DNA of 64,000 bases from Candidatus Portnoybacteria bacterium (GCA_028688325.1 JAQTYI010000002.1:161284-225283); one strand, 5' to 3'; counted from the first letter of the stretch, positions 1 to 17,779 are shown. The notes: generated from the sequence alone by a model not told the origin. A program made the numbers and translations.

Positions 1-447
1 CCATCTATTAATTGTTTCTTTAACCGCTGGCTGACCGCGCGGACCGCGTCGGCCCGCGGCAAAACATATTTAACGATAATTTTTCGCAAATCTCTGTATT
101 TTTCAAAACCGTGAACTTGGATTTCCAAGCCAACCCCGAATTCTTCAGCCAGCATTAAGCCAAGCAAAGATAGATAATACTGGTCTTGCGCCGTTATCGC
201 CTTGATTGCTCCTTTGTTAAGCAATATTTTGGCTGTTTTATAAATATTAAAAAACTGCGTTATTTTGTTGCCGCCGCCAGAGCCGTAAACCTTTACTTTT
301 TCCGATAATTCGATCTTTTCTTTTTTTACACTTGGCACTATGATCGTATATTCTTCAACTAAATTACCATAGTCAATAGCTCTCCGCGCTAAAGCGGAAT
401 TTTTGTCCAGAATCGAAGCGTCCAACCCCAAAGATAATATTTTCATA
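1..447 (-). CDS. Glycosyltransferase (GT4-like N-terminal domain), partial; C-terminus lies beyond the window edge
   Basis: Minus-strand reading frame begins at ATG (445-447) and runs to the window edge; translation MKILSLGLDASILDKNSALARRAIDYGNLVEEYTIIVPSVKKEKIELSEKVKVYGSGGG... resembles the N-terminal Rossmann half of GT4/GT1-family glycosyltransferases. Starts immediately after the stop of the radical SAM gene, so likely same operon. Not in the ORF track because it is truncated. Confidence 0.55.
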
Positions 448-1899
448 CTATTGACTGACAAATTTCTTGGCTAATTTATATTCTACGGGCCAAGCAAAAA
501 ATTTTAATTTCCAGCGCAGCTGGCAGATAAGAATAAATCCCAGCTTCAACAGCTTTTGCGCCTTGACGGAAGAACCCAGCGCCGATTTTATGCCGTGCGC
601 GCCAAAGCGCACGAAGGCCTCCGTCGATTCCACAAAATCCTTATCTTCTTTTTTCACCCAGGGAAAATTTTCCACGGACAAATAATTAATTTCGTTACGC
701 GACAATTCCGCCCATTCTTCCAGCGATTGCGGTTCTTTCCAGCCGCTGGCCACGCATTCATCATACAATTCCGAACCGGGATAAGGCCGGAACGCCTGCG
801 GGCCAAGTATCTGGATCTTGGGGCTCAATTTTATCAGTTTATCGATCAAATTCAAGGTCTCCATCATTTCCGAGCGCGCCTCGCCGGGCAACCCGATCAT
901 AAATGAGTATTGCGGAATTATGCCGTGACGCAAAGCGGCTTTGGCGGAAATTATCACATCTTCCGGATTTATGTCTTTTTTCATTTTTTTGAGCAGCCGC
1001 GGGCAGCCCGACTCGGCGCCGAAAGACAAAAGATAGCAGCCGCTTTTCTTCAGCTTGGCCATAAAATCATCGTCTATCATTCCCTCGCGAATATAGTTGG
1101 CGCGCACGGTCGTCTCCCAAGGAATTACCAAATCGTTTTTTATCATACCATCTATAATGGCTCTGGCGCGCGCCATATCCACAAAAAAATTTTCGTCCCA
1201 AAAACGCAGGGGCTTGCCGGCAAAATACGGCTTGCTTTTGATTATACGCAAGTCCTCCAGCACTTGCTGGGCGGTTCTTGGCCGCCAGGAATTTTTCAAA
1301 ATTGCGTTGATGCAAAAGGAACAGCGGTGCGGACAGCCCCGCGAGGTGAGTGAAGGGATCAAAGTCAGCCGCTCCAAAATTTCCCGCGGTACCAATTCCC
1401 AATCAAACAGCGGCATTTGGGCGGGGTCGTGAAGCGCGCGGGCCTTATTTGAAAATATCCGGCCCCTCTCTTTATAAACCGCGCCGGCCACTTCGCTGAT
1501 TTTTTTTCCGCTGGCAATTTCCAAGATCGTCTCTTCCCCCTCGCCCACCGCCACAATGTCTATCAGGCCGCTTTTTATGGTCTGTTCCGGAAAAAAAGTC
1601 GGATGCGGCCCACCCCAGATTATTTTGCACTCCGGATTAAGCTCCCTGATTATTTTGGATATCTCCAATGCCTGGCCGACCTGCATAGTCATCACCGAAA
1701 AAGCCGCCGCGCCGCTCTTGGGAACTTCCGTTTTTAAGCGCTCCAAAAAATTCGGCTGTCTGGCTCCGTCCAGTATTTCCATGGGCACGCCCTTGCTTTT
1801 CAAATACGAAGCCATGCTTAACAGTCCGACCGACAATGAAGTGTCGTAAACGGCTTTGGCGATATTGAAGGGCGGATTGATTAATAGAATCTTGTTCAT
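448..1899 (-). CDS. B12-binding domain radical SAM protein (class B radical SAM, probable methyltransferase-type)
   Basis: 483 aa; N-terminal cobalamin-binding-like Rossmann region followed by canonical CxxxCxxC radical SAM motif (SRGCPHRCSFCIN). Confidence 0.85.
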   Translation of the reverse strand: MNKILLINPPFNIAKAVYDTSLSVGLLSMASYLKSKGVPMEILDGARQPNFLERLKTEVPKSGAAAFSVMTMQVGQALEISKIIRELNPECKIIWGGPHPTFFPEQTIKSGLIDIVAVGEGEETILEIASGKKISEVAGAVYKERGRIFSNKARALHDPAQMPLFDWELVPREILERLTLIPSLTSRGCPHRCSFCINAILKNSWRPRTAQQVLEDLRIIKSKPYFAGKPLRFWDENFFVDMARARAIIDGMIKNDLVIPWETTVRANYIREGMIDDDFMAKLKKSGCYLLSFGAESGCPRLLKKMKKDINPEDVIISAKAALRHGIIPQYSFMIGLPGEARSEMMETLNLIDKLIKLSPKIQILGPQAFRPYPGSELYDECVASGWKEPQSLEEWAELSRNEINYLSVENFPWVKKEDKDFVESTEAFVRFGAHGIKSALGSSVKAQKLLKLGFILICQLRWKLKFFAWPVEYKLAKKFVSQ

Positions 1900-2009: not shown

Positions 2010-3191
2010 TTAAATACTCTTTATCACCTCCACCGTTTCTGCCACCAACTTTTTCCATTTAAATTTTTCCAGCGTCTTTTTGCCATTTTGGATGAATTTT
2101 TCCCGCAAGGCCTCGTCGTTCAAAAGCGTTTTGACGGCCGTTATCCAAGCTTTTTGGTCGTTATATGGCACGAGCAACCCGTTTTCCCCGCTTTGAACGA
2201 CTTCCGCGTTGCCGCCGATGGATGTAGCGATAACCGGCAAACCGACGGCCATGGCGTTGAGCACAGAATGGGGCAAGCCCTCATAGTTGGTATTTAAAAC
2301 GAATATCGTGGAGCGGCTGAAAATCTTATGGCTCTCCGGCTCGCTCACCCGGCCGCGAAATTTAACATTTTGCTCGATGCTCAATTTCCGCGCCTGCTCT
2401 TTCAAGGATTCCATTTCGGGCCCGTCGCCCAGCACCTCAAAAATGATATCGGGAATCTCTTTTTTCAGCTCAGCGACGACATCAAGCATCACCCCTACGC
2501 CTTTCCAAGGCATGAGGCGCCCCGCAAAGACCAAAGTTGGCGCCATCGGCCTGGTCTTTTGCGGCAGCTCGCCGAAAAAATCCACCGCGTTATAGATAAC
2601 GCGGATATTTTTTTCCGCCGCGCCGATCGCTTTGGCGATACCGGCGATGAAATTGCTTACCGCAATGACCCTGTCGGCGCCGGCCAGTATCTTCGCCCGC
2701 CGTTTTTTCATTTTCTCTATCCGGCGGCCGTATTTTTTATTCTGGAAATCGACAATATAATCTTTGATCCAACCGCACGCCGAGGCCGTCTCCCAAGCGC
2801 TGTCGCCGGCAAAGCGGATGATGTATTTTTTGCCGGTAAGTTTTTTTATCAGATAAGCGAAATAACCCACACTGTAAGTATCGGTGGCATAAATAATATC
2901 GCACCGGCCGGACAGGCGCCACATCCGCCAAAAATACGAGATCTTGGAGCAAGGCGATTGCCTGCTTATCCGCCAAACCATGCCTTCACGCTTTTCCTGT
3001 TCGCTCAAAGCCGTGTCCGAATAAGTGATGACTTTAATGTCCATACCGGCCTTTTTCAGGGCTCCGGGCAATTCCGTCAGCAAAGTGGCCGGGCCACCCA
3101 GGTCCGGAGGATAAATGCCAGTGGCGATCAAAATTTTTACCTGTCCGTTATGTTTGCCGGTCATAAACCATTTCTTTCGGCTTGAAAACAA
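2010..3191 (-). CDS. Glycosyltransferase family 4 (GT1/GT4 superfamily)
   Basis: 393 aa; typical GT4 architecture with C-terminal EX7E-like region (NTNYEGLPHSVLNAMAVGLPVIATSIGGNAEVV). True start may be the internal Met (MTGKHNGQVKILIATG...). Confidence 0.85.
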   Translation of the reverse strand: MFSSRKKWFMTGKHNGQVKILIATGIYPPDLGGPATLLTELPGALKKAGMDIKVITYSDTALSEQEKREGMVWRISRQSPCSKISYFWRMWRLSGRCDIIYATDTYSVGYFAYLIKKLTGKKYIIRFAGDSAWETASACGWIKDYIVDFQNKKYGRRIEKMKKRRAKILAGADRVIAVSNFIAGIAKAIGAAEKNIRVIYNAVDFFGELPQKTRPMAPTLVFAGRLMPWKGVGVMLDVVAELKKEIPDIIFEVLGDGPEMESLKEQARKLSIEQNVKFRGRVSEPESHKIFSRSTIFVLNTNYEGLPHSVLNAMAVGLPVIATSIGGNAEVVQSGENGLLVPYNDQKAWITAVKTLLNDEALREKFIQNGKKTLEKFKWKKLVAETVEVIKSI

Positions 3192-3582
3192 AAGCCCCGT
3201 AGGCGATGAAATTCCATATCGCTATCAGCGCGGCCGCGAAAACTTGCGCCAACAGATACCAAATGCCGAAAATATCCACCAAAAGGTACATCAGGCCCGT
3301 ATTGGCCGTTAAGCTTATCAAAGCGACCAAGAGATAAACGGCCATCTGTTTTTTCATCATTCCCCGGCTCTTGTCCTGAAAGGTCCATAATTTCTGCAGA
3401 AAAAAACTGACGAAAAAGGCCACGACAAAAGACGCGGCGGCCGAAAACAGATACCAGACCCCCAACCAGTCGGTAAAAACAAAAAGCAGCGCCAAGTTAA
3501 CGCCGGTGGCGGTGCCGCCGGCGATCAGATATCTTAATATTTTTTTTCTTTTGGCCAGTTGTTCCTTCAAAAAATCCATCAT
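3148..3582 (-). CDS. GtrA-family membrane protein (polysaccharide synthesis/translocation accessory)
   Basis: 144 aa, 4 predicted TM helices; N-terminal motif LRYLIAGGTATGVNLALLFVFTDWLG characteristic of GtrA-like proteins. Overlaps the downstream GT by 44 nt. Confidence 0.7.
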   Translation of the reverse strand: MMDFLKEQLAKRKKILRYLIAGGTATGVNLALLFVFTDWLGVWYLFSAAASFVVAFFVSFFLQKLWTFQDKSRGMMKKQMAVYLLVALISLTANTGLMYLLVDIFGIWYLLAQVFAAALIAIWNFIAYGAFVFKPKEMVYDRQT

Positions 3583-4739
3583 AAAGTTAACTGTGTGAAT
3601 GTTTCTTTCATCTGCGCGGCGATTTTATTCCAGCTGTATTGTTCCTGAACCAGCACTCTGCCGTTGATGATGAGCTTGGAATGCAAGGCGTGGTCGGCCA
3701 GCAATAGATTTATTTTTTCCGCTATGCTTTGGGAGTCCGAAACCTCGCAAAAAAGACCGGTTGGCGCTTGCCCCGAGTTTACCGAGGGATCGCGTAAAAA
3801 ATCCGGTATGCCGCCGACTTTTGTGCCGATTATCGGCACGCCCGCGGCCATGGCTTCCAAAAAAACATTGCCCAGCCCCTCGGCCAGCGACGGCCGGACA
3901 AATACATCGGCAATCGCCAAAAATTGCGGCACTTTATCGTGGGGCACATCGCCTAAAAATAATACCCTGTCGTTTAATCCCGAATTTTTAACCCGCGCCT
4001 TTAATTCCCGTTCCAGCGAACCGCTTCCCAAAATCAACAATTTAACCTCGGCCGGCAAATGCGACATCGCTTTGATCAGGTCGGCAATGCCATTTTTTTC
4101 CACCAGGCGCGAAACCGTGACAATAACTTTTTCTTGAATGGTTATACCCAGGCGCGATCTTAATTCCTGCTTGTTGCCGCCCGGCGTCTGAAATTTATTT
4201 ATATCCACGCCGTTCGGTACGATGGCTATTTGGCTTTTGGCGCCGTGCGCCAGCGCGAATTCCTTGAGATACCGGCTGATAGCCGTGATGAGATCGGCGC
4301 TAACGAACATTTTTTTATAATACGGCCCGAGCCATAAAGCGCGGGAAGCGATATGTTCGGGAGTGTCTCCTTCCTGCAAGGTTAAAACATACGGCACGCT
4401 CTTTAACTTATTTTTAAAAAATAGCGCGGCCAAACCGCCAAAAGACGCCATGATGGCCCAAGCGATATCGTACGGCTCCTGCCGGTGCAATTTTTCGGCC
4501 AGCGCCGCTCCGCGCCAAGGCAATAAAAATTTATCCAGTTTTCCCCAACCCCAACCCGCGCGATAGACATTAATTTTGCCCACTTTCTCCTGCTTGGGCA
4601 AATTCCTTTTTATCCGCGCGCAGATGAGGTCAAAAACAAAATCGCCGCCGAGCCGATCGGTAATTTCTTTAACCGCTATCTCAGCGCCCCCTATTAAAGG
4701 CAGATAAGCAGTGGAAAATATTAAAATTCTCTTTATCAT
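3579..4739 (-). CDS. Glycosyltransferase family 4
   Basis: 386 aa; GT4 Rossmann folds, C-terminal EAMAAGVPIIGTKVGGIPDFL motif; 4-nt overlap with the GtrA gene. Confidence 0.85.
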   Translation of the reverse strand: MIKRILIFSTAYLPLIGGAEIAVKEITDRLGGDFVFDLICARIKRNLPKQEKVGKINVYRAGWGWGKLDKFLLPWRGAALAEKLHRQEPYDIAWAIMASFGGLAALFFKNKLKSVPYVLTLQEGDTPEHIASRALWLGPYYKKMFVSADLITAISRYLKEFALAHGAKSQIAIVPNGVDINKFQTPGGNKQELRSRLGITIQEKVIVTVSRLVEKNGIADLIKAMSHLPAEVKLLILGSGSLERELKARVKNSGLNDRVLFLGDVPHDKVPQFLAIADVFVRPSLAEGLGNVFLEAMAAGVPIIGTKVGGIPDFLRDPSVNSGQAPTGLFCEVSDSQSIAEKINLLLADHALHSKLIINGRVLVQEQYSWNKIAAQMKETFTQLTL

Positions 4740-4913
4740 AAAGATAATTATAATTTTGATTCTCGCCCGCCGATTAGCAAAAGACCGGCAACAGAAAACC
4801 CAGCACTCTCTCGTTGCCTTTTATTTATCTGATTATCGCACAAATAGGACAAAATATCAAATAAAAAACAGGCCTGTAAAGAGCCCATTTTTTGCCATTT
4901 TTTAATAAAATTT

Positions 4914-6728
4914 TTACTCCAAACCTATCTCTTTTTTGTATTCCGCGAGCCACTCCAGCAAATTTATCGTCGGCTCCCAGCCCAAAAGCTCTTTGGCCAA
5001 GGAATTATCCGCTAATGTTTCTTTGGGCTCGATCCTGGGTGAAATATTTATTCTTGGTCCGCCGATGATTCCGGCTATTTGATTGACGCTATGATTGCTT
5101 CCCCGGCCGATATTTATCACTTCGCCCTTGCCGACATTGGAGCTGTTGGCCGCCAAGATATTGGCGCGCACCACATCGGCAACGCCGGTAAAATCGCGCT
5201 TCTGCTCGCCGTCGCCCACTATGGTCATCGGCTTTCCCGCCAAGCGCTGCCTGACAAATATTCCCAATACCAAAGTATAAGCCCCTTCCAAGGGCTGGCG
5301 CCGGCCGTAAACATTGAAATAACGCAAGGCGACCGTCGGCAGGCCGTAGAGCTCGGAAAATAGCCGGCAATATTGTTCGCCCATATGCTTTTGCATGGCG
5401 TAAGGGCTCATGGGATTGGTCGGCATATCTTCGCGCAAAGGCATTTTTTCCTGGTCGCCGTAAGCGGAAGAAGAAGCGGAGTAGATGACTTTTTTCACTT
5501 TTGCGTCACGGCTGGCGACCAAAACATTCAAAGTGCCGTTTAAATTGACATCATTGGAGCCGACCGGATCCTGGATCGACGGCTGCACGCGGGGCCTCGC
5601 CGCCAAATGAAAAACATAATCCACGCCTTCAAACAGCGGCTTGATGGCATTTAGATTCCTGATGTCCTCTTGATAAAGCTTGGCTCCGGGATTCAGATAT
5701 TCGCGCTTGCCGGCTGAAAGATCATCTATCACAATAACCTCATTGCCCCGACTGACCAGTTCGTCAACCAGATGAGAGCCGATAAAACCCGCGCCGCCCG
5801 TCACCAGGCATTTGGCCGATCTCTTTTTTTGAGACGGAACGGGAAACAGCGAGCGATTCAAAGCGTCGTTAAATACCTCCTCTCCATAAACTCCGGACAG
5901 CAAGTCCAGGTCTTTTTTGCTCGAAATCAGCAAATCAATATTCTTATTTTTAACGCTTTCCAAAACATCTTTTCCCAGAGAGTCGCCGACCATCTCTTCG
6001 TAGAATTTATGAAAAGCCGCAAAATCCTTGATAAAACAGTGGCCGCCCGCCCCCCGGCCGCTTTTGTGGATCGGGTCCAGATGCGTCCGGCCGATGCGCC
6101 AATCAGCCGCCATCGCGTCCCTGACCACTTCCCAGCGAGCGCCGGATTTGGCGACAAGATCAAAAAACATATTTATAAAAACCACTTTAAAATAGAACCA
6201 GTTATTGCCGCCATATTTTATTAGCTCCGCTTCGCGTGAAGAACACACCAAAGAATACGGGGCATAAGGCAAAACTTTCATCGCTTCTTGAGCTGCCCGG
6301 CGAAAATCGGAATTATCTATCGGCAGACCGATAATGTTGCGTTGGGGATTGGCGGAGTCATGGGCAGCTGTGGCTTCAGTTAAAAATTCGGGCGAATGCA
6401 GAACAAAAATACCGGGATTTTCCTCCTGGATCTTTTCGGTAGCACCGGGCAGAACGGTCGACTTGATGACCGCGATCTTTCCCCGCCCGATCTTCTTTAT
6501 CACTTGCCGCAAAATAGCATCGTCAAAACCCCGAGGAGTGGTGGGCGTGGGCACGGCGATAAAAACAATATCGCACTCGCTTATGCCGTGACCATTCCGG
6601 ACATAAGGCTCTTCCAGAGCGTAACGGACAATATCAAAACCGCGCCGTTCGAAATCGTCGGCGTAGCTTTTACCTATCCATCCCTGGCCGATAAACCCTA
6701 TTTTTTTGTTCAAATTTTGCCCGTTCAT
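4914..6728 (-). CDS. Fusion protein: truncated UDP-glucose/GDP-mannose dehydrogenase-like N-terminal + central domain fused to NAD-dependent sugar epimerase/dehydratase (SDR)
   Basis: 604 aa. Residues 1-~290 carry GxGxxG (IGFIGQGWIGKS) and the catalytic-Cys motif GGHCFIKD of nucleotide-sugar dehydrogenases but lack the C-terminal UDP-binding domain. Residues ~300-604 are an extended SDR ([17 protein letters not shown]; YAMQK catalytic YxxxK) as in UDP-glucose/glucuronate 4-epimerases. Confidence 0.8.
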   Translation of the reverse strand: MNGQNLNKKIGFIGQGWIGKSYADDFERRGFDIVRYALEEPYVRNGHGISECDIVFIAVPTPTTPRGFDDAILRQVIKKIGRGKIAVIKSTVLPGATEKIQEENPGIFVLHSPEFLTEATAAHDSANPQRNIIGLPIDNSDFRRAAQEAMKVLPYAPYSLVCSSREAELIKYGGNNWFYFKVVFINMFFDLVAKSGARWEVVRDAMAADWRIGRTHLDPIHKSGRGAGGHCFIKDFAAFHKFYEEMVGDSLGKDVLESVKNKNIDLLISSKKDLDLLSGVYGEEVFNDALNRSLFPVPSQKKRSAKCLVTGGAGFIGSHLVDELVSRGNEVIVIDDLSAGKREYLNPGAKLYQEDIRNLNAIKPLFEGVDYVFHLAARPRVQPSIQDPVGSNDVNLNGTLNVLVASRDAKVKKVIYSASSSAYGDQEKMPLREDMPTNPMSPYAMQKHMGEQYCRLFSELYGLPTVALRYFNVYGRRQPLEGAYTLVLGIFVRQRLAGKPMTIVGDGEQKRDFTGVADVVRANILAANSSNVGKGEVINIGRGSNHSVNQIAGIIGGPRINISPRIEPKETLADNSLAKELLGWEPTINLLEWLAEYKKEIGLE

Positions 6729-6895: not shown

Positions 6896-7100
6896 TGCGT
6901 AAAATCCTCTATATCATCACTCAATCGGAGCCGGGACGGCGCGTCGCCCCGCTAAAGCGGGACTCCCTAAAACCCCTCGGTTTTAGTATTTCCGCCAAGG
7001 GGGCGCTTCGCTCCCCCGCCACCCCCTCTGCGCGTCGCCAAAACAACTGATATCGCTTCACTCATATGAAAAAAATCATCTATATCATCACTCAATCGGA
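6896..7100 (+). other. Duplicated gene start (imperfect ~32-bp direct repeat) separated by a GC-rich ~130-bp insert; first copy gives a 25-codon truncated ORF
   Basis: atgcgtaaaatcctctatatcatcactcaatcggagc (6896-6932) vs atgaaaaaaatcatctatatcatcactcaatcggagc (7066-7102): MRKILYIITQSE / MKKIIYIITQSE. Intervening 6934-7065 is GC-rich (cgggacggcgcgtcgccccgctaaagcggg...gcgcgtcgccaaaac) unlike its surroundings. Confidence 0.6.
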
Positions 7101-8229: not shown

Positions 8230-8235
8230 CTGAAA

Positions 8236-8344: not shown

Positions 8345-8716
8345 TTATTTCGACTTATTGATAATCGAGGAAAAGATAAAAACAAGCTCTTGGCGTTCTT
8401 TCCATAGGGTCCGGCAATCTTGCTGATTTAATGGACAAGCTTTAGCTATCATTCTTAACCAATGCATTGTTTCTTTGGCCTCTTTCCGAGAAATCGCAAG
8501 CTTATGTTTGAAATCTTTTTTAGATTCGCCGGCATCCGCTTCCGTATAGTTTGCGCCGATACTCGTCCCCGATCTGACTATTTGGCCGATCAAAGGCCTC
8601 GTTACTTCGTCTTTTTTTATTAATCGGGCAAATTCAATAATATTTTCACCCAATAAAGCGGTTCTTTCCAAAAGGTCATATTTTTTGTTATTGGAAATTG
8701 GGATTTTATTTGACAT
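8345..8716 (-). CDS. Four-helix-bundle protein (23S rRNA intervening-sequence protein family)
   Basis: 123 aa; family motifs SGTSIGANYTEADAGESKKDFKHKLAISRKEAKETMHWLRM. Confidence 0.8.
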   Translation of the reverse strand: MSNKIPISNNKKYDLLERTALLGENIIEFARLIKKDEVTRPLIGQIVRSGTSIGANYTEADAGESKKDFKHKLAISRKEAKETMHWLRMIAKACPLNQQDCRTLWKERQELVFIFSSIINKSK

Positions 8717-11118: not shown

Positions 11119-13188
11119 TTATTTTATCTGTTCCCAATACCGCCTAACTTCCTCACCCATTTTACCATCAATCTTTTGCGCTTGTGAAATGATTTCCTGC
11201 GCTTTGGCCTGTTGCCCCGATAAAGAATAGCCGGCCGCCAAGACCAGATAGGCGTCTTTTTTATTCGGCCTCAGCTCTTTAGCTCGGTTGCCCAAGTCAA
11301 TGGCCATGCTCATCCGGCCACGGTCTTGGGTCGAAAAATAAAGATCCAACCAGGCCAGCGCAAGATAATTCCCGGCTTGGTCGGGCGAGCGCTCAATCCC
11401 TTTTGCCAGCGCCGCGGCGGCGATATTATAAAAGTCCTCATTTTGCGCCAAAGCCGGGTTTTGATTGATTTTATCAATATAGTCCAAAGAGGCCTGATAT
11501 GCAATCTCGGCGGAACCGAATGCGCCCAGATCAAGCGCATCTTTCAGCAGAGGCGCCTCAAGGGCGGCATTTTCCGCGGGCAATGACAATATCTGGTTGG
11601 CCCGGTAGGCGGCCAGGAGAGGTTTGAAATTAAAAGAGTAAACGGCCGTTAGCAAATAGCCGACAACCAATAGCAAAATAATTTTTTTAAAAACACTCCA
11701 CTCGCCGCCGCGAGAAATCTCCCGCCGGCAAGGAAATATCACGCAGTCGGACTGCGTGATATTGACGATAAATGCCAGAACGAAAAACAGCATTAGATAA
11801 GAAACAAAGGAATCAAAAATAAAAAAATTCTGGACCAGATACGCGGCCAGGAGAGACAAAAAAATGACAGAAAATAAAAACGCCTTTTTTTTATTTTCTG
11901 TCATCCCGGACTCGATCCGGGATCCAGGAGCATGGATTCCGGCTTTCGCCGGAATGACAACCCTAATTAATTCATAGCTTACTATAATAAAAATACCCAA
12001 ATACGCCAACAATCCCAGCCAACCCGTTGCCACGCCGTAATCAAAAATAAAATTGTGTGCGCGGTCAGTTGCGTAGGCCTCAAATTCCGCCAGGCGCGGC
12101 GATAGATATCGGCCCGTGGCCGCCTCGAAATTTTCCGGACCAAAACCCAAAATCGGCTTGGTTTGCCAGGCCCGCCAAGCGCCTTGCCAAAGAAGCAAGC
12201 GGCTTTGGGTCGTGGCATCGCTCAGGGAAAAATGGGTTAAGCGATACAGAGTTGAATTATTTTTTACCAGGTCGTTGCCGCGGAAAAGAAACAAAGAAAT
12301 AATCAAAACAAAAATAATGGCCAAAAACACCCAGCTTGTTTTTTTTGTCATCCCGAATTTATTTTGGGATTTCCTGTCACTGGATCCTGAAACAAGTTTA
12401 GGACGACAAACTTCTTGATTAAATAAAAAAATAATTATCCCCGCCGCCAGCCCCAGCCACGCGCCGCGCGTGCCGGACAATAATAAGCTTATGGTTAATA
12501 GCAAAGAACTAATAGCAAAAAACCATTTTCGCCACCCGGCCGACGCAAAAAATAAATAACCGGCTAAAAAAAGATTAAGCAAGGCATAGCCGGCAAAAAA
12601 GCCCGCGTTGCCGATAAGACCAAAGACCCGGCCATTTGCCGGCAAAAGAATACCCCAGCCCCCCAGGCGCTGAATAAGGGCTGTGAGGGCGATAAATACG
12701 GCCACTGCCACTGAAATTCCCGCTAATTTAACCCAATCTTGCTGCCCCTTAAAAACGGCGGATAACATTAAAAACCAAGCAACAAAATGCGCTAAACCCC
12801 AAACTCCGCCTCCCCGCTCCAAACTACCCCAAAAACTATTGTAAAAATCTAAGCCAAAAATGGCAGAGAGAAGGTTGATGGCGAAAAAAACCAATACCGC
12901 GCCCGCAACGCTGGTAAACCAACTTGTGTAGCGGGCAGGCCTGGATTCCGGCTCTCCGCTCACGCTTCGGCCGAAATGACAAAATGTTTTGGGATATTTT
13001 AGCGCCAGATAAAGATAGAGCGCCGCGGCGATCTCCACCAAAATCCTGAACGCGAAAACTTTTGGCGCGGTATAAGGAAAAATAAAAGAAGCGCTGGCAA
13101 AAAGCGGCGCGGCCAGGCAAGCAGCCAGTAAAATTTTTATCAACCCGAAAATTTTATTATCTGTCTTAGAAAAATCTGAAATTTTCAA
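11119..13188 (-). CDS. O-antigen ligase family (Wzy_C/PglL-like) membrane protein with C-terminal TPR domain; paralog of 8739-11057 carrying three in-frame palindromic-element insertions
   Basis: 689 aa; SGTRGAWLGLAAG, GFGPENF, DRAHNFIFDYGVATGWLG motifs; TPR-like tail. Three extra peptide segments relative to the paralog coincide with palindromic-element copies at 11899-11960, 12346-12392 and 12938-12983. Confidence 0.75.
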   Translation of the reverse strand: MKISDFSKTDNKIFGLIKILLAACLAAPLFASASFIFPYTAPKVFAFRILVEIAAALYLYLALKYPKTFCHFGRSVSGEPESRPARYTSWFTSVAGAVLVFFAINLLSAIFGLDFYNSFWGSLERGGGVWGLAHFVAWFLMLSAVFKGQQDWVKLAGISVAVAVFIALTALIQRLGGWGILLPANGRVFGLIGNAGFFAGYALLNLFLAGYLFFASAGWRKWFFAISSLLLTISLLLSGTRGAWLGLAAGIIIFLFNQEVCRPKLVSGSSDRKSQNKFGMTKKTSWVFLAIIFVLIISLFLFRGNDLVKNNSTLYRLTHFSLSDATTQSRLLLWQGAWRAWQTKPILGFGPENFEAATGRYLSPRLAEFEAYATDRAHNFIFDYGVATGWLGLLAYLGIFIIVSYELIRVVIPAKAGIHAPGSRIESGMTENKKKAFLFSVIFLSLLAAYLVQNFFIFDSFVSYLMLFFVLAFIVNITQSDCVIFPCRREISRGGEWSVFKKIILLLVVGYLLTAVYSFNFKPLLAAYRANQILSLPAENAALEAPLLKDALDLGAFGSAEIAYQASLDYIDKINQNPALAQNEDFYNIAAAALAKGIERSPDQAGNYLALAWLDLYFSTQDRGRMSMAIDLGNRAKELRPNKKDAYLVLAAGYSLSGQQAKAQEIISQAQKIDGKMGEEVRRYWEQIK
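11899..11960. mobile_element. Miniature palindromic element (TGTCATCCCGG...CCGGAATGACAA family) inserted in-frame in a CDS
   Basis: tgtcatcccggactcgatccgggatccaggagcatggattccggctttcgccggaatgacaa; translated in the host ORF as VIPAKAGIHAPGSRIESGMTE; absent from the paralog. Confidence 0.7.
12346..12392. mobile_element. Degenerate copy of the TGTCATCCCG element, in-frame in the CDS
   Basis: ttgtcatcccgaatttattttgggatttcctgtcactggatcctga; host translation ...SGSSDRKSQNKFGMTKKT... Confidence 0.5.
12938..12983. mobile_element. Partial copy (right half) of the palindromic element, in-frame in the CDS
   Basis: ctggattccggctctccgctcacgcttcggccgaaatgacaaaa; host translation CHFGRSVSGEPESRP. Confidence 0.5.
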
Positions 13189-13297: not shown

Positions 13298-13990
13298 TTA
13301 CTGCTTCGCTTCCAACTCCGCCAAGTCCGCTTTGGCGGCCGCGTTATCGGGCAATAGACGCACCAACTCCTTGTACCACTGGATAGCTTTATTCGTTTGG
13401 TTCGTATCCCGGAAATAACCGGCCAGCGGACCGATCAGATTGGCATTATCGGGAAATTTTTGCAAGGCCTCCAGCATCGTGGTTTCATACATCGCTTCTT
13501 GCCCGGGCAAACGATAGCGGTAGATATCCGCCATCATTAAATAAAAATTAATATCGTTCGGTTCATTGGCAATAGCTATCTTTATCATTTCCAGCCCTTT
13601 TTGCGGCTGGTTCAAAAAATTAGCGTAGAGATCCGCCAAATTGACGAACGGCGGCGAACTTTTAGGCCGAAGCTGCGCCGCATATTGCCAAACATCCCGC
13701 GCGCCTTCATAATCGCCCACACCTTTTTTCAATATCCCCAAAAAAAGCCAACCGGTAAAATCCTCCTGATCGGCCCGCAAGCGGACCAAAGCTTTATTAA
13801 AATTTTCCTGATAGATTCGCGCTTCTCCAGCGGAGAGATTTTTATCTTTTATTTCAAAAATTAATAATTTTTCCGGAGTCAAAACAGCTTCTTTTTTAAA
13901 AATATATCCTTGTTGATAGGCGAAAAAAACGCCGGCAGATAAAACTAATGCGGTCATGACGCCACAAATAATATAATATTTTTTAGACAT
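13298..13990 (-). CDS. Membrane-anchored TPR-repeat protein
   Basis: ORF-track frame 13298-14125; the first 45 codons overlap a palindromic-element copy, so the likely start is the internal Met (MSKKYYIICGVMTALVLSAGVFFAY...) at 13990. One N-terminal TM helix, then TPR-like repeats. Confidence 0.55.
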   Translation of the reverse strand: MSKKYYIICGVMTALVLSAGVFFAYQQGYIFKKEAVLTPEKLLIFEIKDKNLSAGEARIYQENFNKALVRLRADQEDFTGWLFLGILKKGVGDYEGARDVWQYAAQLRPKSSPPFVNLADLYANFLNQPQKGLEMIKIAIANEPNDINFYLMMADIYRYRLPGQEAMYETTMLEALQKFPDNANLIGPLAGYFRDTNQTNKAIQWYKELVRLLPDNAAAKADLAELEAKQ

Positions 13991-14009
13991 AATAAAAATT
14001 ATGCCATAC

Positions 14010-14072
14010 CGGATTAAATCCGGCATCCAGGCCCTAAATTCTGGATCCCGCGGCAAGCCCGGGATGACAAAA
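14010..14072. mobile_element. Palindromic element copy (TGTCATCCCGGGCTTGCC... family), reverse orientation
   Basis: gccggattaaatccggcatccaggccctaaattctggatcccgcggcaagcccgggatgacaaaaa. Confidence 0.6.
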
Positions 14073-14209
14073 AATGAATAATTACTTAACGGTATTCTAT
14101 CAAATTTTTCCCAAAAAGAAAACACCCAAAGCCCGAAGGCAAAGGGTGTTCTCTTTTTTCCCGCGGCTAAGTCACAAGCAAAGCCGAAGGAATTTTCTCA
14201 TTTAAGAGA

Positions 14210-17200
14210 TTATTTGCTCAAGGTTTGAGCCGTCAGGTTGGAAGAAGGCAAACCTGAAACCAGGTAGCCGTTCGTCCAATCAGTTATAGACGAACCAACC
14301 GGCGTCGTATCATGGCTGGCGCTTGAAACATCAGACCAGATGAAGTCGTCGCTGGCGTCCAACTCAGCATTGTCAAAGGTCACCATACCAGCGCTCATAG
14401 ATGTCGGAGCTGCGGCATCACCCATCAAGTAGGTGGTAACCGAAGCGCCCGAACCGGCACCGGCAATAGTTCCTCGCAACGCAAAGGTGCGAGAAGTGCC
14501 GGCGGAAACGGTTCTGGTAGTGGTCGCTGTGCCCCAAGTCGCGGCCGCAGCATAGGTATAGATGTCAATGACACCGCCCATGTCCGCGTAGAACTGAGTG
14601 TTCGTGGTCGTCGCGTTTAGGGTGACTTGAGCCGACTCTGTTATATCCACCAAGGTAATATCCTTAATGGACAAATGTGCGCCGAGAACCGATTGGCTGG
14701 TAGTCGCGATCGTGAAGGTGAACTTGACCAAGTCAATGTCGCCCTTGGCATCAGCGGACACTTTGAATCTATACAAATCCATAGTGCCGTTAGTCAAAGT
14801 GTTGGTGTCCAACGCGACCGTGGAAACGGTCGGGACTGACTTGTAGATGTAAGCCGAGGTCTGCGCCGTGGTCGAGCTGTAGTTAGCAATTGACGCACCC
14901 GATGACTGGCCAGTACCCATGTTATATGTGGTGCTGGTTGAGCCATAGTAGTCAATCGCAATCTGATGGCCCGCATCCGCCACGGTGTTCGTGGTGAGGA
15001 TAGGCGCGATATCGGCCTTAATGGTAACGATCTTGTCAACATTCGGTGCAAGGACCAACGCCGGCGACAGAGTAAAGGTGGTTGACGCATTGTTGGTCAA
15101 GCCAACCGCATCGCCCGTGCCTAGCGTACCGCTAGCCAATAATGTCGCTCCGTCGTAGATATAAACTTTAGACAAATCGTTCGCTGAAGAGCTGGCATTT
15201 GTCAAAGCCAACATGACTTTAGTCACATTTATCTGTTCGGCGGTGGCCTTAAACTTCAACACGGTCATGGTATTGCCCGTGGTGTTACCCGCGATCAACT
15301 TGCCAGTCGGGGTTGAAGAATCCAGAACCACGCTGTATTGGCCGCCAGCCGCGATGGTCATCGCTTGGCCCGCCTGCGCCACGGTCACACCAGTGGCCGT
15401 AATGGTCAAAGTGGTGGAAACGCCGGTCGCTGTAATGGTCGGAGAGGCCTTCAAGCCCCAAGCATGGGTGCTGGTTGAGCCGGTCGTCGCGTTGCCCGCG
15501 ATATTGCCTTTCAGAGCGAGGGTCTTGGAAGTTCCCTTCGGAATTATCACGCCGGCGCTGTCCAAGGTAATAGTCGTCTGATTAGCCGCGTCGGCTGTGC
15601 CAGCCAAAGTGGTCACATTGCTACCGGTGTTTAGAGCGGTCGTGCCATCCCACAATTGCAAAGTGGAGATGTCGGTCGCTACGCCAGCCGCGCCGATGGT
15701 GTCTTGAACTTCAACCACAGTCACTTTGACATCTTCGCCGGAGGCGGTGGCGTCAAAGAGTAAATTGGCAAAAGTGTAGCCAACAATGCCGCGGATAACT
15801 TCTTGGGCCACCGGGGTGCCGGAAACCGAAACCACTAACGAGCCGCCCTTGACAGTCATGGTGTTGCCAGTAACTTGGGTGGCCGGAGTGGCGGTAATGG
15901 AATTGCCGGTCGTGCCGCCGGTGATGCTGGTAATCTTGTCACCCGGGGTATTGAAGCCCACCGCGATGGTGCCATCGTTGGTCAGCGTGGTCGCTAAATT
16001 ACCCTTGACAAGAACCTGGGTCGTGCCAACCGGGAAAGTAACAGTGCCGGTAAAGGTGGCTTTTGACTCGCCCGCGCTGGCATAAGCTGCATCAACCGGA
16101 CCAGCTAAAATAGTACCGTCGGCTTTAGTCAGGGTCATGTTGGTAATATTGCCAACACCCAAAGAAGAAGTGGCGATTTTCAAGATCATGCTCGCCACAT
16201 TGATTGGTTCGCCCGCGACAACAAAGTCGAAGGAGCCCAACAAAACGCCGGTCGCGCCTTTGGTAATGTTGGCGGCCGGAGCGCCGGTTGAACTCTTGTC
16301 AATGCGCAGAGAGCCGGTGCCGACGGTGATGTCATTGGCATTGAAGACCGGGTTGCCAGCCGTATTCCACGGGTATGTGGTGTTGGCATCCGGAGTCAAA
16401 TAATAACCATAGACATTACCCTTGATAACCACATCTGTCGTGCGATAAATATCGAACGAGATGGTTCTGGCTGAACCGCTCAAGATATTACCTTTGACGG
16501 TAAATTCTTTGGACAAACCCTTGGCAATAGTAATGCCAGCGGTGCCAAAAGAAGCGGTGAAATACTTACCGTCGGAAGAAACCGTTGTGGCATAGTTGGT
16601 CGTGCCATCAGAAACCACAACGCTCCCTAAGTCCGAAGACGCGGCCGAGCCGGACTGGTTAAACCGGATAGAGGTTATAGTCAGGTCTTCAATTGAACCA
16701 GCCGTGAATTTGACGCCGGAGAAATTGAAGTCGTTCGTGCCGACTTCCTTATTAGTGGAAGTGGCTGCATTCAACGAACCGGAAGCGACAGTGTAGCTGC
16801 CGATGCTCAAGGTTTCGTTGATGGTTTGGCTGTTGCCGGTTATCGGCAACACGCCGCTAACAGTAGCGGTGGTTTCCACCGAGACCAAAGCCAAATTAGC
16901 GGTCTGTCCGGCCGCGCTCTGCGAGGTGGACGGCATGTTGGCCGCTAAAGTGTAATACTTGGTAGTATTGGCCGGAATGGTAAAGGACTCCCGAACGGTG
17001 ATCTGGTGATCAGCATTCAAGGTTTGATTTAAGCCGATCTGAAGATTGGTCGTGTTATCAATCAAAGCGACTGAAGACAAGGCCGTATCAGCCGCTAAAC
17101 CGGTCCGCTGCGCTTTGATAGCCGTGACCGTAACATCGGTCGCGCCGGCCGTTAAAGCAAATTTTGTGAACGGAACGCGGGCCGCCTTCAAAGGCGCAAT

Positions 17201-17779
17201 ACCGGCCGCCGGAGTGTCAGAAGCCAAAGAAACCGTTACGGTTCCGGCCACACCCGGGGTGACAGTGGTTGAAGGAGAAGCAGAAGTTCCGCCAGTGATA
17301 TCAGCACCTGGGGTGTAGACATCGCGGTCAGTGGTATTTATCTGGTAAACAGAATCCCAATCATAACCGGCGGCGGTGAACGCTTCGGCGGTCATGTTGA
17401 CCCACTGTTTCGAACCGTTATCGCTGTTTGGAACCGGAACCAGGGAATAAACTTTAGGATCGCCGACGGCTCTCACTAAAGTAGAAGTCGTGAACTGGTC
17501 CATTTGCGCTTGAGTCACGGTCTTTATTCTGCTCCAGCTCAAGTGTTGATAACTGTTGAAAACGGACGGGCTCAAGACCAATCTTTTGAAGTTCTTGGCA
17601 CCCATGTATTTCACAATATAAACATCAAGAGTATTGGCAACTCTGATGGTGTCGCCTTCAAGAATGCCGGCAACAGCAGCGGAAGCAGCCAAAGGAGCCA
17701 AGGCCGCAACGCCAGACAACCACAAGATAGTGGTCACGCTGGTTGAAACGGAAATGACTTTTTTGAATGTTTTACTCAT
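14210..17779 (-). CDS. Large secreted Thr/Ser/Gly/Ala-rich repeat protein (candidate S-layer/surface adhesin-like protein)
   Basis: 1189 aa; N-terminal signal peptide (MSKTFKKVISVSTSVTTILWLSGVAALAPLAASAA); remainder low-complexity beta-rich repeated modules dominated by T, S, G, A, V; no enzymatic motifs. Confidence 0.7.
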   Translation of the reverse strand: MSKTFKKVISVSTSVTTILWLSGVAALAPLAASAAVAGILEGDTIRVANTLDVYIVKYMGAKNFKRLVLSPSVFNSYQHLSWSRIKTVTQAQMDQFTTSTLVRAVGDPKVYSLVPVPNSDNGSKQWVNMTAEAFTAAGYDWDSVYQINTTDRDVYTPGADITGGTSASPSTTVTPGVAGTVTVSLASDTPAAGIAPLKAARVPFTKFALTAGATDVTVTAIKAQRTGLAADTALSSVALIDNTTNLQIGLNQTLNADHQITVRESFTIPANTTKYYTLAANMPSTSQSAAGQTANLALVSVETTATVSGVLPITGNSQTINETLSIGSYTVASGSLNAATSTNKEVGTNDFNFSGVKFTAGSIEDLTITSIRFNQSGSAASSDLGSVVVSDGTTNYATTVSSDGKYFTASFGTAGITIAKGLSKEFTVKGNILSGSARTISFDIYRTTDVVIKGNVYGYYLTPDANTTYPWNTAGNPVFNANDITVGTGSLRIDKSSTGAPAANITKGATGVLLGSFDFVVAGEPINVASMILKIATSSLGVGNITNMTLTKADGTILAGPVDAAYASAGESKATFTGTVTFPVGTTQVLVKGNLATTLTNDGTIAVGFNTPGDKITSITGGTTGNSITATPATQVTGNTMTVKGGSLVVSVSGTPVAQEVIRGIVGYTFANLLFDATASGEDVKVTVVEVQDTIGAAGVATDISTLQLWDGTTALNTGSNVTTLAGTADAANQTTITLDSAGVIIPKGTSKTLALKGNIAGNATTGSTSTHAWGLKASPTITATGVSTTLTITATGVTVAQAGQAMTIAAGGQYSVVLDSSTPTGKLIAGNTTGNTMTVLKFKATAEQINVTKVMLALTNASSSANDLSKVYIYDGATLLASGTLGTGDAVGLTNNASTTFTLSPALVLAPNVDKIVTIKADIAPILTTNTVADAGHQIAIDYYGSTSTTYNMGTGQSSGASIANYSSTTAQTSAYIYKSVPTVSTVALDTNTLTNGTMDLYRFKVSADAKGDIDLVKFTFTIATTSQSVLGAHLSIKDITLVDITESAQVTLNATTTNTQFYADMGGVIDIYTYAAAATWGTATTTRTVSAGTSRTFALRGTIAGAGSGASVTTYLMGDAAAPTSMSAGMVTFDNAELDASDDFIWSDVSSASHDTTPVGSSITDWTNGYLVSGLPSSNLTAQTLSK

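What the first reader, a model, noticed from the sequence alone, without database searches (positions are those of the whole stretch)
1..17779. Candidate protein O-glycosylation system: glycan-assembly cluster + two PglL/WaaL-like (Wzy_C) TPR-tailed ligases + giant Thr-rich surface protein
Seen in sequence: a co-oriented block encodes a partial GT4, a B12-binding radical SAM enzyme, three further GT4s, GtrA and a dehydrogenase-epimerase fusion. Two tandem paralogous Wzy_C-domain polytopic proteins follow, each fused to a periplasmic TPR domain, then a TPR protein and an 1189-aa secreted Thr/Ser-rich repeat protein. Established knowledge: bacterial protein O-oligosaccharyltransferases (Neisseria PglL, Pseudomonas PilO, Paenibacillus WsfB) are Wzy_C-family enzymes that transfer undecaprenyl-linked glycans onto Ser/Thr/Tyr of pilins or S-layer proteins. 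Inference: this is a dedicated surface-protein O-glycosylation locus, with the TPR tails as substrate-recognition modules; the two ligases differ (one riddled with element insertions), suggesting sub-functionalisation or decay. The same locus is flanked upstream by an ECF sigma/anti-sigma pair and UDP-sugar supply genes (galU, uxs).
Basis: partly seen in the sequence, partly recalled or inferred. Interest (0 to 1): 0.75.

Follow-up and report, generated by a model that had tools for sequence, protein, structure and literature searches.

The report
Surface-protein locus with candidate glycan-attaching enzymes
In an uncultured ultra-small bacterium (Candidatus Portnoybacteria), the gene for a probable major surface-coat protein lies next to two membrane enzymes of the O-antigen-ligase type and a set of sugar-building genes, an arrangement that resembles known coat-protein glycosylation loci, although sequence alone cannot show whether the sugar goes onto the protein or onto the cell wall.

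Summary
The window is from a Candidatus Portnoybacteria (Patescibacteria) contig. The 1189-aa protein has a signal peptide, 16.5% Thr, no Cys and pI 4.9. It is modelled as a string of Ig-like domains. Relatives occur in at least 367 species genomes.

The closest precedent is the S-layer glycosylation clusters of Geobacillus and Paenibacillus, where the Wzy_C transferase has a fused or adjacent TPR. The O-glycosylation reading is therefore plausible but unproven.

- Across 80 loci the constant partner of the surface gene is the small TPR protein (71/80). Wzy_C genes are adjacent only in the clade whose surface protein carries a different N-terminal anchor-like module.
- That pattern fits equally well a wall glycopolymer that serves as the anchor.
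- No PglL_A motif, initiating transferase or exporter is in the window.

Verdict: partly supported, probably a new member of a known kind, moderate interest.

The parts
1..446 (-). First ~148 codons of a further GT4 glycosyltransferase; the gene runs off the window
   Evidence: On the identical short contig L008 the gene after the radical SAM gene is a 364-aa GT4
448..1899 (-). B12-binding radical SAM enzyme (class B). Probably modifies a sugar of the glycan; this role is inferred
   Evidence: Pfam B12-binding and Radical_SAM. No NCBIfam equivalog reached its cut-off. Conserved at the same position in L001
2010..3191 (-). GT4 glycosyltransferase
   Evidence: Pfam Glycos_transf_1 and Glyco_transf_4
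3148..3582 (-). GtrA-family small membrane protein
   Evidence: Pfam GtrA_DPMS_TM, E 2.6e-25. Fused to the neighbouring GT4 in L001
3579..4739 (-). GT4 glycosyltransferase
   Evidence: Pfam
4914..6728 (-). Fusion of a nucleotide-sugar dehydrogenase (N-terminal and central domains) with an SDR epimerase/dehydratase
   Evidence: Pfam UDPG_MGDP_dh_N, UDPG_MGDP_dh and Epimerase. Best NCBIfam similarities are TviC and GalE, both below cut-off. The fusion is also present in L001
7066..8229 (+). GT4 glycosyltransferase, transcribed divergently
   Evidence: Pfam. A GT4 in the opposite orientation occupies the same position in L001 and L007
8345..8716 (-). Four-helix-bundle protein (23S rRNA IVS protein family). 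Probably a lineage-specific insertion and not part of the system
   Evidence: Pfam 23S_rRNA_IVP and TIGR02436. Absent at this position in L001 and L007
8739..10973 (-). Wzy_C (WaaL-fold) transferase with 13 TM helices and a C-terminal outward-facing TPR solenoid (744 aa; the ORF extends to 11057)
11119..13188 (-). Paralogous Wzy_C transferase (689 aa) with a shorter helical tail. Carries four in-frame palindromic-element insertions in predicted cytoplasmic loops
   Evidence: Pfam Wzy_C. 29% identical to its neighbour. Aligned with the 626-aa and 703-aa orthologs, catalytic residues intact. Elements located; loop assignment
13298..13990 (-). Small membrane-anchored TPR protein (230 aa from Met46 of the ORF). 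It is the conserved partner of the surface-protein gene
   Evidence: Pfam TPRs. One N-terminal TM helix. Lies directly downstream of the big gene in 71 of 80 loci
13991..14209 (.). Intergenic stretch holding two palindromic elements
   Evidence: Repeat families D4, I5 and I11
14210..17779 (-). 1189-aa secreted Thr-rich protein. Layout: signal peptide, a ~125-aa N-terminal module, a short S/T/P/A linker, then a string of Ig-like beta-sandwich domains. Candidate S-layer or major surface protein
   Evidence: No Pfam or NCBIfam hit. AF2 model. Composition and pI. Family size. Foldseek matches Ig-domain arrays, including archaeal S-layers
17780..18590 (-). 810-nt non-coding region upstream of the surface-protein gene, with a near-consensus promoter-like site at 18421-18392
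   Evidence: No Rfam family reached its gathering score
18591..19640 (-). Single-pass membrane protein with an extracytoplasmic DUF5667 domain (anti-sigma-like)
   Evidence: Pfam DUF5667. TM helix. Conserved next to the sigma gene in L001, L006, L007 and L088
19849..20379 (-). ECF-type sigma factor
   Evidence: TIGR02937 at 98 bits, above its cut-off
20574..21443 (-). GalU-like UTP-glucose-1-phosphate uridylyltransferase
   Evidence: Pfam NTP_transferase. TIGR01099 at 274 bits, full length but below cut-off
21476..22126 (-). Putative winged-helix regulator. Homolog of the gene that directly precedes the surface-protein gene in most Parcubacteria
   Evidence: BLASTP E 7e-10 to L005:8453-9274. 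That cluster is present in 58 of 80 loci
22356..23306 (-). Extended SDR nucleotide-sugar enzyme. UXS-like by motif recall only; not confirmed by a curated model
   Evidence: Pfam GDP_Man_Dehyd and Epimerase. All NCBIfam hits are below cut-off

Best explanation
This is the surface-coat locus of a Portnoybacteria (Patescibacteria) cell that has taken in a glycan-transfer module.

Proposed pathway:
1. The GT4 enzymes, the dehydrogenase-epimerase fusion, GalU, the UXS-like enzyme and the B12-radical SAM enzyme build a glycan on a polyprenol carrier at the inner face of the membrane. The initiating transferase is encoded elsewhere in this genome.
2. After the glycan is flipped across the membrane, one or both WaaL-fold Wzy_C enzymes transfer it en bloc, outside the membrane.
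3. The acceptor is Ser/Thr (or Tyr) of the neighbouring 1189-aa surface protein as it emerges from the Sec channel.
4. The outward-facing TPR tails and the small membrane-anchored TPR protein hold the protein substrate.

This is how the S-layer glycosylation (slg) systems of Geobacillus stearothermophilus and Paenibacillus alvei are thought to work.

Shown here: gene content, the fold, the catalytic residues, the outward orientation of the TPR, conserved gene order within the clade, and the S-layer-like character of the protein.

Inferred: the donor, the acceptor, any role of the TPRs in substrate binding, and control by the ECF sigma factor.
For: Gene order is conserved:
- Surface gene, small TPR, Wzy_C, Wzy_C-TPR and the glycan genes lie in the same order, separated by short gaps.
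- The order holds in L001/L009 (65-69% identity), L007 (55%), L013, L058 and L010.
- At least seven further pairs of Wzy_C-TPR and big-protein homologs report the same longest-contig length. This is indirect evidence that they share a contig.
- In L088, where the surface protein is only 35% identical, it is followed by small TPR, a GT2, a PMT-family GT-C and a Wzy_C-TPR. PMT is a second enzyme family that contains protein O-glycosyltransferases.

The enzymes look active and face outward:
- R221, R306 and H353 are invariant. They correspond to WaaL R215/R288/H338 and PglL R224/R298/H349 (PMC3643930).
- A 13th TM helix puts the TPR on the catalytic, outer side.

Precedent exists for TPRs on protein glycan transferases:
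- WsfB is Wzy_C plus a C-terminal TPR. WsaB is preceded by the TPR protein WsaA. Both lie in clusters with nucleotide-sugar genes, GTs and galU, and in Geobacillus next to the S-layer gene (PMC2943079).
- The pilin transferase TfpW also has a periplasmic TPR (bioRxiv 10.1101/2020.04.19.049825).

The surface protein looks like an S-layer protein:
- Signal peptide, 16.5% Thr, no Cys, pI 4.9, Ig-like domain string.
- Relatives in at least 367 species genomes, at nearly constant length.
- Patescibacterial proteins of 1131-1274 aa have been predicted to form S-layers (supplement of bioRxiv 10.1101/2024.05.28.596244).
- Secreted proteins with PG-binding domains are among the most highly expressed genes in cultured Paceibacteria (PMC10936435).
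- That these published proteins belong to this family is likely but was not verified.
Against: - No feature tested separates a protein acceptor from a lipid or glycan acceptor.
- PglL_A (PF15864) did not hit either window protein and was not among the 25 most-matched families across 37 members.
- The window has no Bac_transf-type initiator, no Wzx and no Wzm/Wzt exporter.
- Thr-richness (12-17%) is family-wide. It does not track Wzy_C adjacency.
- In 50 of 50 loci whose surface protein has a PG_binding_1 N-terminus, no Wzy_C gene lies within 5-10 kb.
- Wzy_C-TPR relatives at 30-35% identity sit in Wzx/Bac_transf/TagF-like clusters without the surface protein.
- TPR domains are also typical of polysaccharide export and assembly scaffolds. 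This is established knowledge, and the point is referenced in PMC2943079 (its ref. 99).
- The clade-limited linkage is a single evolutionary event and cannot be counted as repeated evidence.
Confidence: 0.45

Rival explanations
1. The two Wzy_C enzymes are a polymerase/ligase pair for a cell-envelope glycopolymer, either a secondary wall polymer or a membrane-anchored lipoglycan. That polymer is the ligand for the surface protein's N-terminal module. The glycan genes sit beside the coat gene because coat and anchor are co-inherited, not because the coat protein is glycosylated.
For: - Wzy_C adjacency coincides exactly with replacement of the PG_binding_1 N-terminus by a different ~125-aa module. 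The count is 4 of 5 loci with that module against 0 of 50 with PG_binding_1, taking loci with at least 5 kb downstream.
- That module is a mobile unit. It is found in 1,863 cluster representatives of 156-2236 aa, at either end of the protein and in 1-3 copies, as expected of a wall-binding domain.
- It also occurs on a second secreted protein in L088 and L084.
- Distant Wzy_C-TPR homologs lie in Wzx/Bac_transf clusters. One is next to a TagF-like Glyphos_transf gene.
- From established knowledge (not tested here): Wzy_C-family enzymes in monoderms include the pneumococcal lipoteichoic acid ligase TacL and the teichuronic acid protein TuaE.
- S-layer anchor-domain swaps go together with changes in wall-polymer machinery (bioRxiv 10.1101/2025.04.02.646754).
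Against: - In monoderms, wall polymers are usually attached to peptidoglycan by LCP enzymes, not by Wzy_C ligases. No LCP gene was seen among the window genes examined.
- Both paralogs carry the His-containing ligase motif (DRxHN), so neither is clearly a Wzy-type polymerase.
- The small TPR protein partners the surface protein in 71 of 80 loci whatever the anchor type. This suggests TPR-protein contacts in this system.
- The PMT-family enzyme in L088 points towards protein modification.
Confidence: 0.35
2. The neighbourhood is a general envelope-polysaccharide or exopolysaccharide cluster that merely lies beside the surface-protein gene in this clade. It has no specific functional tie to that protein. 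The TPR tails act as scaffolds for polymer assembly or export.
For: - Wzy_C-TPR proteins are common in Patescibacteria, with 378 hits among the capped candidates. They are mostly found away from the surface gene.
- The window contains a second, separate glycan cluster at 52936-58708.
- CPR genomes are compact, so envelope genes often end up adjacent.
Against: - The order surface gene, TPR, Wzy_C, Wzy_C-TPR, with short intergenic gaps on one strand, is kept down to 55% identity. A related arrangement is kept at 35% identity of the surface protein.
- The linked Wzy_C-TPR proteins form a distinct group (51-100% identity). It is separated from the other Patescibacterial homologs (36% or less) apart from one intermediate at 44%.
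- The glycan genes appear to have been inserted into an otherwise conserved core of regulator, surface gene and TPR.
Confidence: 0.15

Closest known systems
S-layer glycosylation (slg) clusters of Geobacillus stearothermophilus NRS 2004/3a and Paenibacillus alvei CCM 2051T, with transferases WsaB and WsfB (PMC2943079)
   Same: - A monoderm envelope.
- A Wzy_C-domain transferase with a TPR that is either fused (WsfB) or encoded just upstream (WsaA before WsaB).
- A cluster with glycosyltransferases, nucleotide-sugar genes and galU.
- A position beside the surface-layer structural gene.
- A Ser/Thr/Tyr-rich secreted target.
   Different: - This locus has two tandem Wzy_C paralogs.
- No Wzm/Wzt ABC exporter is in the window.
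- No WsaP/WsfP-type initiating transferase is in the window. One is present in the orthologous cluster L001.
- The cluster includes a B12-radical SAM enzyme and GtrA.
- Neither the S-layer nature of the target nor its glycosylation has been shown.
- Direct sequence comparison with WsaB and WsfB was not possible with these tools.
PglL/PilO(TfpO) O-oligosaccharyltransferases of Neisseria, Pseudomonas and Acinetobacter (PMC3643930)
   Same: - The Wzy_C domain.
- Conserved Arg/Arg/His at closely similar positions: R221/R306/H353 here against R224/R298/H349 in PglL.
- The gene often lies next to its target protein gene.
   Different: - No PglL_A (PF15864) motif hit in the two window proteins, and the family was not among the 25 most matched across 37 members. 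Wzy_C_2 appears only weakly, in L088.
- The host is a monoderm.
- The enzyme has a 13th TM helix and a ~270-aa TPR solenoid.
- The neighbouring candidate target is a large Ig-domain protein, not a pilin.
WaaL O-antigen ligase (Cupriavidus metallidurans, PDB 7tpg/7tpj)
   Different: - Only 14% sequence identity, and no hit in a sequence search of the PDB.
- None of the window genes examined is a lipid A-core or LPS gene.
- An extra TM helix and a TPR domain are present.
- The acceptor cannot be lipid A-core in a Patescibacterium.
TPR-bearing protein glycosyltransferases of other folds: TfpW pilin arabinosyl-transferase (bioRxiv 10.1101/2020.04.19.049825), and the eukaryotic TMTC and OGT enzymes (recalled from knowledge)
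   Same: A polytopic or soluble glycosyltransferase is joined to a TPR array on the same side as the active site. The TPR is thought to hold the protein substrate. The TPR part of the model matches the OGT and SPY TPR domains best.
   Different: The catalytic folds and the donors differ. The resemblance lies in architecture only.
Pneumococcal lipoteichoic acid ligase TacL and the teichuronic acid protein TuaE (recalled from knowledge, not tested)
   Same: Wzy_C-family enzymes acting on envelope glycopolymers in monoderm bacteria. They are the model for the main rival explanation.
   Different: No TPR tail is known in either. They are not linked to a surface-protein gene. No curated model for them matched here.

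Membership tests
Wzy_C / WaaL-fold transferase superfamily | Match to Pfam PF04932 above the gathering score | tested here: met
   72.8 and 63.9 bits against a cut-off of 31.7. All 37 aligned family members match
Wzy_C / WaaL-fold transferase superfamily | WaaL-like polytopic fold with a large outward-facing catalytic loop | tested here: met
Wzy_C / WaaL-fold transferase superfamily | Conserved Arg, Arg and His equivalent to E. coli WaaL R215, R288 and H338 | tested here: met
   R221, R306 and H353 are invariant in 37 sequences and present in the 689-aa paralog. Residue equivalence follows PMC3643930
PglL-type protein O-oligosaccharyltransferase | PglL_A motif (Pfam PF15864) flanking Wzy_C | tested here: not met
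   No hit at E<=0.01 for either window protein. No hit at E<=1 for the 744-aa protein, and not among the 25 families matched by most of the 37 members
PglL-type protein O-oligosaccharyltransferase | Gene adjacent to a plausible target glycoprotein and outside an LPS locus | tested here: met
   The genes lie 1-3 kb downstream of the secreted Thr-rich protein. No LPS genes were identified among the window genes examined
PglL-type protein O-oligosaccharyltransferase | Transfer of a lipid-linked glycan to Ser/Thr of a protein | not testable with these tools
   Needs glycoproteomics or an in vitro or heterologous transfer assay
WaaL lipid A-core O-antigen ligase | Acts in an LPS pathway: diderm host with lipid A-core genes | tested here: not met
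   The organism is Candidatus Portnoybacteria. The few CPR organisms described are monoderm (PMC8871954). No curated WaaL model matches
S-layer glycosylation (slg) cluster | Wzy_C transferase with a fused or adjacent TPR protein | tested here: met
   compared with the description in PMC2943079
S-layer glycosylation (slg) cluster | Glycosyltransferases and nucleotide-sugar genes in the same locus | tested here: met
   Three complete GT4 genes and one partial, the dehydrogenase-epimerase fusion, GalU and a UXS-like SDR
S-layer glycosylation (slg) cluster | Initiating polyprenol-phosphate sugar-1-phosphate transferase (WsaP/WsfP type, Bac_transf) | tested here: not met
   No homolog anywhere in the 64-kb window. 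A Bac_transf gene is present inside the orthologous cluster in L001
S-layer glycosylation (slg) cluster | Glycan exporter (Wzm/Wzt ABC transporter) in the cluster | tested here: not met
   None found in the cluster. The window holds only GtrA and a MurJ gene at 49389-51128. The cluster continues beyond the window start, so the test is incomplete
S-layer glycosylation (slg) cluster | Neighbouring gene encodes the S-layer protein | tested here: inconclusive
   The composition, signal peptide, Ig-domain string, constant length and wide conservation all fit. Lattice formation and abundance were not shown. The link to published Patescibacterial S-layer predictions was not verified at sequence level

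The most novel reading that the evidence does not exclude
The Wzy_C-TPR proteins would be a Patescibacteria-wide class of protein O-oligosaccharyltransferases. Their fused, outward-facing TPR solenoid would capture Ig-domain surface proteins. In the Portnoybacteria clade a specialised tandem pair would decorate the S-layer protein, under ECF-sigma control, with a glycan that contains a sugar modified by the B12-radical SAM enzyme. This would be the first glycosylated S-layer system defined in the candidate phyla radiation. The small TPR protein would be its universal assembly partner.
Probability: 0.25. Interest if true: 0.65.

Novelty: new member of a known kind. Interest (0 to 1): 0.45.

Why it matters
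Patescibacteria are a large share of bacterial diversity. They live attached to other cells, and their envelope is almost unstudied.

- This work points to a concrete candidate for their surface coat. The protein family has nearly constant length, relatives in at least 367 species genomes, and a constant small TPR partner.
- It also identifies one clade in which glycan-transfer genes have been recruited into that locus.
- If the coat is glycosylated, the glycan would be the outermost layer that meets hosts and phages. The system would extend the Firmicute S-layer glycosylation model to a very distant phylum.
- If instead the glycan is the anchor for a new wall-binding module, the locus would document a coupled swap of anchor and ligand.

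Either outcome can be tested with existing enrichment cultures.

Tried and rejected
- A sequence search of the PDB with the membrane part alone found nothing. Only fold comparison found WaaL.
- BLASTP between the small TPR protein and the TPR tail of the ligase showed no specific similarity. A shared origin of the two TPR units is therefore not supported.
- The 1217-aa protein at 59476-63129 is not a paralog of the surface protein.
- Rfam found no known RNA in the 810-nt upstream region.
- I looked for an S/T-rich linker conserved across the family as a candidate glycosylation site. Such linkers exist in the window protein and in L007, but they vary and are not conserved.
- I tried to tie the family to the published Patescibacterial S-layer predictions by accession. 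Lengths and architecture fit, but no accession match could be made.
- Literature searches found no description of Wzy_C-TPR proteins in Patescibacteria.
- I rejected 'decay' of the second ligase, for the reasons given in the report.
- I rejected the canonical WaaL role, because there is no LPS context.

Full report
**What is there**

The window comes from a Candidatus Portnoybacteria (Patescibacteria) assembly. The 772-aa ORF is 100% identical over 744 aa to a deposited "O-antigen ligase family protein" on a 788,852-bp contig. Read in the direction of transcription on the minus strand, the region has three parts.

Upstream genes:
- A UXS-like SDR (22356-23306).
- A putative winged-helix protein (21476-22126).
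- GalU (20574-21443).
- An ECF sigma factor (19849-20379).
- A single-pass DUF5667 membrane protein (18591-19640).
- An 810-nt non-coding stretch.

Surface protein and transferases:
- The 1189-aa protein (14210-17779).
- A small TPR protein (13298-13990).
- A Wzy_C protein (11119-13188).
- A Wzy_C-TPR protein (8739-10973).
- A four-helix-bundle gene (8345-8716).

Glycan block:
- A divergent GT4 (7066-8229, + strand).
- The dehydrogenase-epimerase fusion (4914-6728).
- GT4 (3579-4739), GtrA (3148-3582) and GT4 (2010-3191).
- A B12-radical SAM enzyme (448-1899).
- The start of another GT4 (1-446).

Domain assignments rest on Pfam and NCBIfam. The exceptions are the strand of one GT4, the intervening four-helix gene, two ORF starts, and the absence of a detectable TPR model in the second ligase.

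**The two Wzy_C enzymes**

A 37-sequence alignment gave a confident AlphaFold model of the 744-aa protein (pLDDT 89, pTM 0.84). The model has a helical membrane domain followed by a helical-repeat (TPR) domain at residues 491-741.

- The invariant residues of the family are R221-G222, R306, G324/G326/N329 and D350-R351-H353. These are the counterparts of E. coli WaaL R215/R288/H338 and Neisseria PglL R224/R298/H349, which are known to be needed for activity (PMC3643930).
- Hydrophobic segments and the K+R counts of the loops give an N-terminus inside the cell. The 80-residue catalytic loop is outside. After the 12-helix core comes a 13th helix (452-470), which puts the TPR tail outside, on the catalytic side.
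- PglL_A (PF15864), the motif built to separate protein transferases from WaaL, gave no hit in either window protein. It was also not among the 25 most-matched families across the 37 members.

**The "riddled" paralog**

I aligned the 689-aa protein with its orthologs in L001 (626 aa) and L007 (703 aa).

- It has four lineage-specific insertions, at about residues 70-90, 258-280, 409-431 and 478-486.
- At the DNA level three of the four contain copies of short palindromic elements scattered through the window, mostly between genes. Two carry the core TGTCATCCCGG...CCGGGATCCA and one carries a different palindrome. The fourth (about 12940) holds a more diverged copy.
- All four insertions fall in predicted cytoplasmic loops.
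- The catalytic residues and reading frame are intact. The ortholog in L007 carries different insertions at other loop positions.
- Both paralogs occur as a pair in L001, L007, L013, L058 and L010, so the duplication is old and both copies have been kept.

This argues for division of labour rather than decay.

**The surface protein**

- It has a Sec-type signal peptide, which I read directly from the sequence (hydrophobic core ending in ASA).
- It contains 16.5% Thr, against 3-4% for other proteins in the window. It has no Cys, and its predicted pI is 4.9.
- The model has an N-terminal alpha/beta module (residues about 40-160, low confidence), a disordered S/T/P/A linker (164-177), and then a string of beta-sandwich domains.
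- Fold matches are generic Ig-domain arrays, among them archaeal S-layer proteins.
- No Pfam or NCBIfam model matches it.
- The family is large and strikingly uniform in length, at about 1150-1220 aa. A pattern scan confirmed relatives in 367 stretches from species-representative genomes, across many Parcubacteria lineages.
- A preprint that predicts S-layer lattices lists Patescibacterial S-layer proteins of 1131-1274 aa (bioRxiv 10.1101/2024.05.28.596244).
- Cultured Paceibacteria express secreted proteins with peptidoglycan-binding domains among their top transcripts (PMC10936435).

These published proteins very probably belong to the same family, but I could not verify this by sequence.

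**Neighbourhood analysis**

I compared 80 loci from different species.

- The small TPR gene lies directly downstream of the surface gene in 71 of 80 loci.
- A roughly 265-aa winged-helix gene lies directly upstream in 58 of 80. Its homolog in the window is the 216-aa gene at 21476-22126.
- Wzy_C genes lie within 10 kb in only 5 of 80 loci.
- The loci divide by the N-terminal module of the surface protein. With PG_binding_1, 0 of 50 loci have Wzy_C nearby. With the window's module, 4 of 5 do, counting loci with at least 5 kb downstream. The same clade has the ECF sigma and DUF5667 pair upstream.
- The window's N-terminal module is itself a widespread mobile unit. It hits 1,863 cluster representatives in proteins of 156-2236 aa, at either end and in 1-3 copies. 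That is the behaviour of a surface-anchoring domain.
- In the more distant L088 the order is surface gene, two small genes, small TPR, GT2, a PMT-family GT-C, then Wzy_C-TPR. A PMT-like gene also lies near the surface gene in L079.
- Wzy_C-TPR homologs at 30-35% identity in other Patescibacteria sit in clusters with Bac_transf, Wzx-like and, in one case, TagF-like genes, without the surface protein.
- The homologs at 51-100% identity probably correspond to the surface-gene-linked group.

**Interpretation**

The core module is regulator, surface protein and small TPR protein. In the Portnoybacteria clade it has been expanded on one side by GalU and the sigma/anti-sigma pair. On the other side it has been expanded by the Wzy_C pair and the glycan genes.

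Known biology offers a close model in the slg clusters. There the predicted S-layer O-oligosaccharyltransferase has a Wzy_C domain and a TPR that is either fused (WsfB) or encoded just upstream (WsaA before WsaB). The cluster lies with nucleotide-sugar genes and GTs, and in Geobacillus next to the S-layer gene (PMC2943079). On that basis I take protein O-glycosylation as the single most likely function, at a confidence of about 0.45.

The main rival, at about 0.35, is that the enzymes make a wall or membrane glycopolymer that the new N-terminal module binds. The exact coincidence of Wzy_C adjacency with the anchor-module swap is what this rival predicts. Thr-richness gives no discrimination, because it is family-wide.

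The window lacks an initiating transferase and an exporter. This is neutral between the two readings, because L001 has Bac_transf inside the cluster.

A canonical WaaL role is excluded by context.

**Novelty and score**

What is new is the host phylum, the tandem 13-helix TPR-tailed pair, and the link to a very widespread candidate coat protein. I found no paper describing Wzy_C-TPR proteins or surface-protein glycosylation in Patescibacteria. Without any evidence on the acceptor, this is a moderately interesting and well-posed hypothesis rather than a discovery.

Noticed in passing
window 11119-13188 (elements at about 11739-11764, 11899-11959, 12346-12372, 12918-12981); other copies at 14002-14082, 38991, 43325, 46697, 46784, 51149, 63124: Short palindromic elements lie mostly between genes, but several are inserted in frame in one Wzy_C gene. 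Most share the core TGTCATCCCGG...CCGGGATCCA; the one at 11739-11764 is a different palindrome. Each insertion adds 9-22 aa, and all four are in predicted cytoplasmic loops. The ortholog in L007 has different insertions at other loops. This resembles Rickettsia palindromic elements, here in a CPR genome.
   Followed up: partly
window 17255-17674 (residues 36-175 of the 1189-aa protein): A ~125-aa module with no Pfam model hits 1,863 cluster representatives. It occurs in proteins of 156-2236 aa, at the N- or C-terminus, and in 1-3 tandem copies. In this protein family it takes the place of PG_binding_1. It is probably an undescribed cell-surface anchoring domain.
   Followed up: partly
window 13298-13990 and 80 related loci (L009-L088): A small membrane-anchored TPR protein follows the surface-protein gene in 71 of 80 species, whether or not any glycosylation gene is near. 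A winged-helix gene precedes the surface gene in 58 of 80. This three-gene module often lies near FtsK/RecA and ribosomal L10/L12 genes. The role of the TPR partner is unknown.
   Followed up: partly
window 17780-18590: An unusually long (810-nt) non-coding region lies upstream of the surface-protein gene. It has an 11/12 match to a sigma-70 promoter at 18421-18392, which implies a ~610-nt leader, and an inverted repeat at 18240-18344. No Rfam family matches.
   Followed up: partly
L088 13898-21614; L079 14004-15743: In a distant Portnoybacteria genome the surface gene is followed by small TPR, a GT2, a PMT-family GT-C and a single Wzy_C-TPR. A PMT-like gene also lies near the surface gene in a Liptonbacteria genome. 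Different glycan-transfer enzymes have been recruited to the same position.
   Followed up: partly
window 448-1899: A B12-binding radical SAM enzyme is conserved inside the glycan block, here and in L001. Its best similarities (HpnJ and PhpK-type methyltransferases) are far below their cut-offs. It may make an unusual C-modified sugar.
   Followed up: no
window 59476-63129: A 1217-aa secreted protein combines Zn-dependent phospholipase C, lamin-tail and beta-helix/NosD domains. Relatives lie just downstream of the surface gene and TPR pair in other Parcubacteria (for example L068).
   Followed up: partly
window 52936-58708: A second, separate glycan-related cluster: a 934-aa DUF4012 protein and two GT4 glycosyltransferases. 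A MurJ flippase gene lies at 49389-51128.
   Followed up: no
L089 4782-10172 and L005 10001-17475: A large LCAT-domain protein lies beside a Wzy_C-TPR gene in one genome and beside the surface gene and TPR pair in another. This is a weak second link between the two modules.
   Followed up: no
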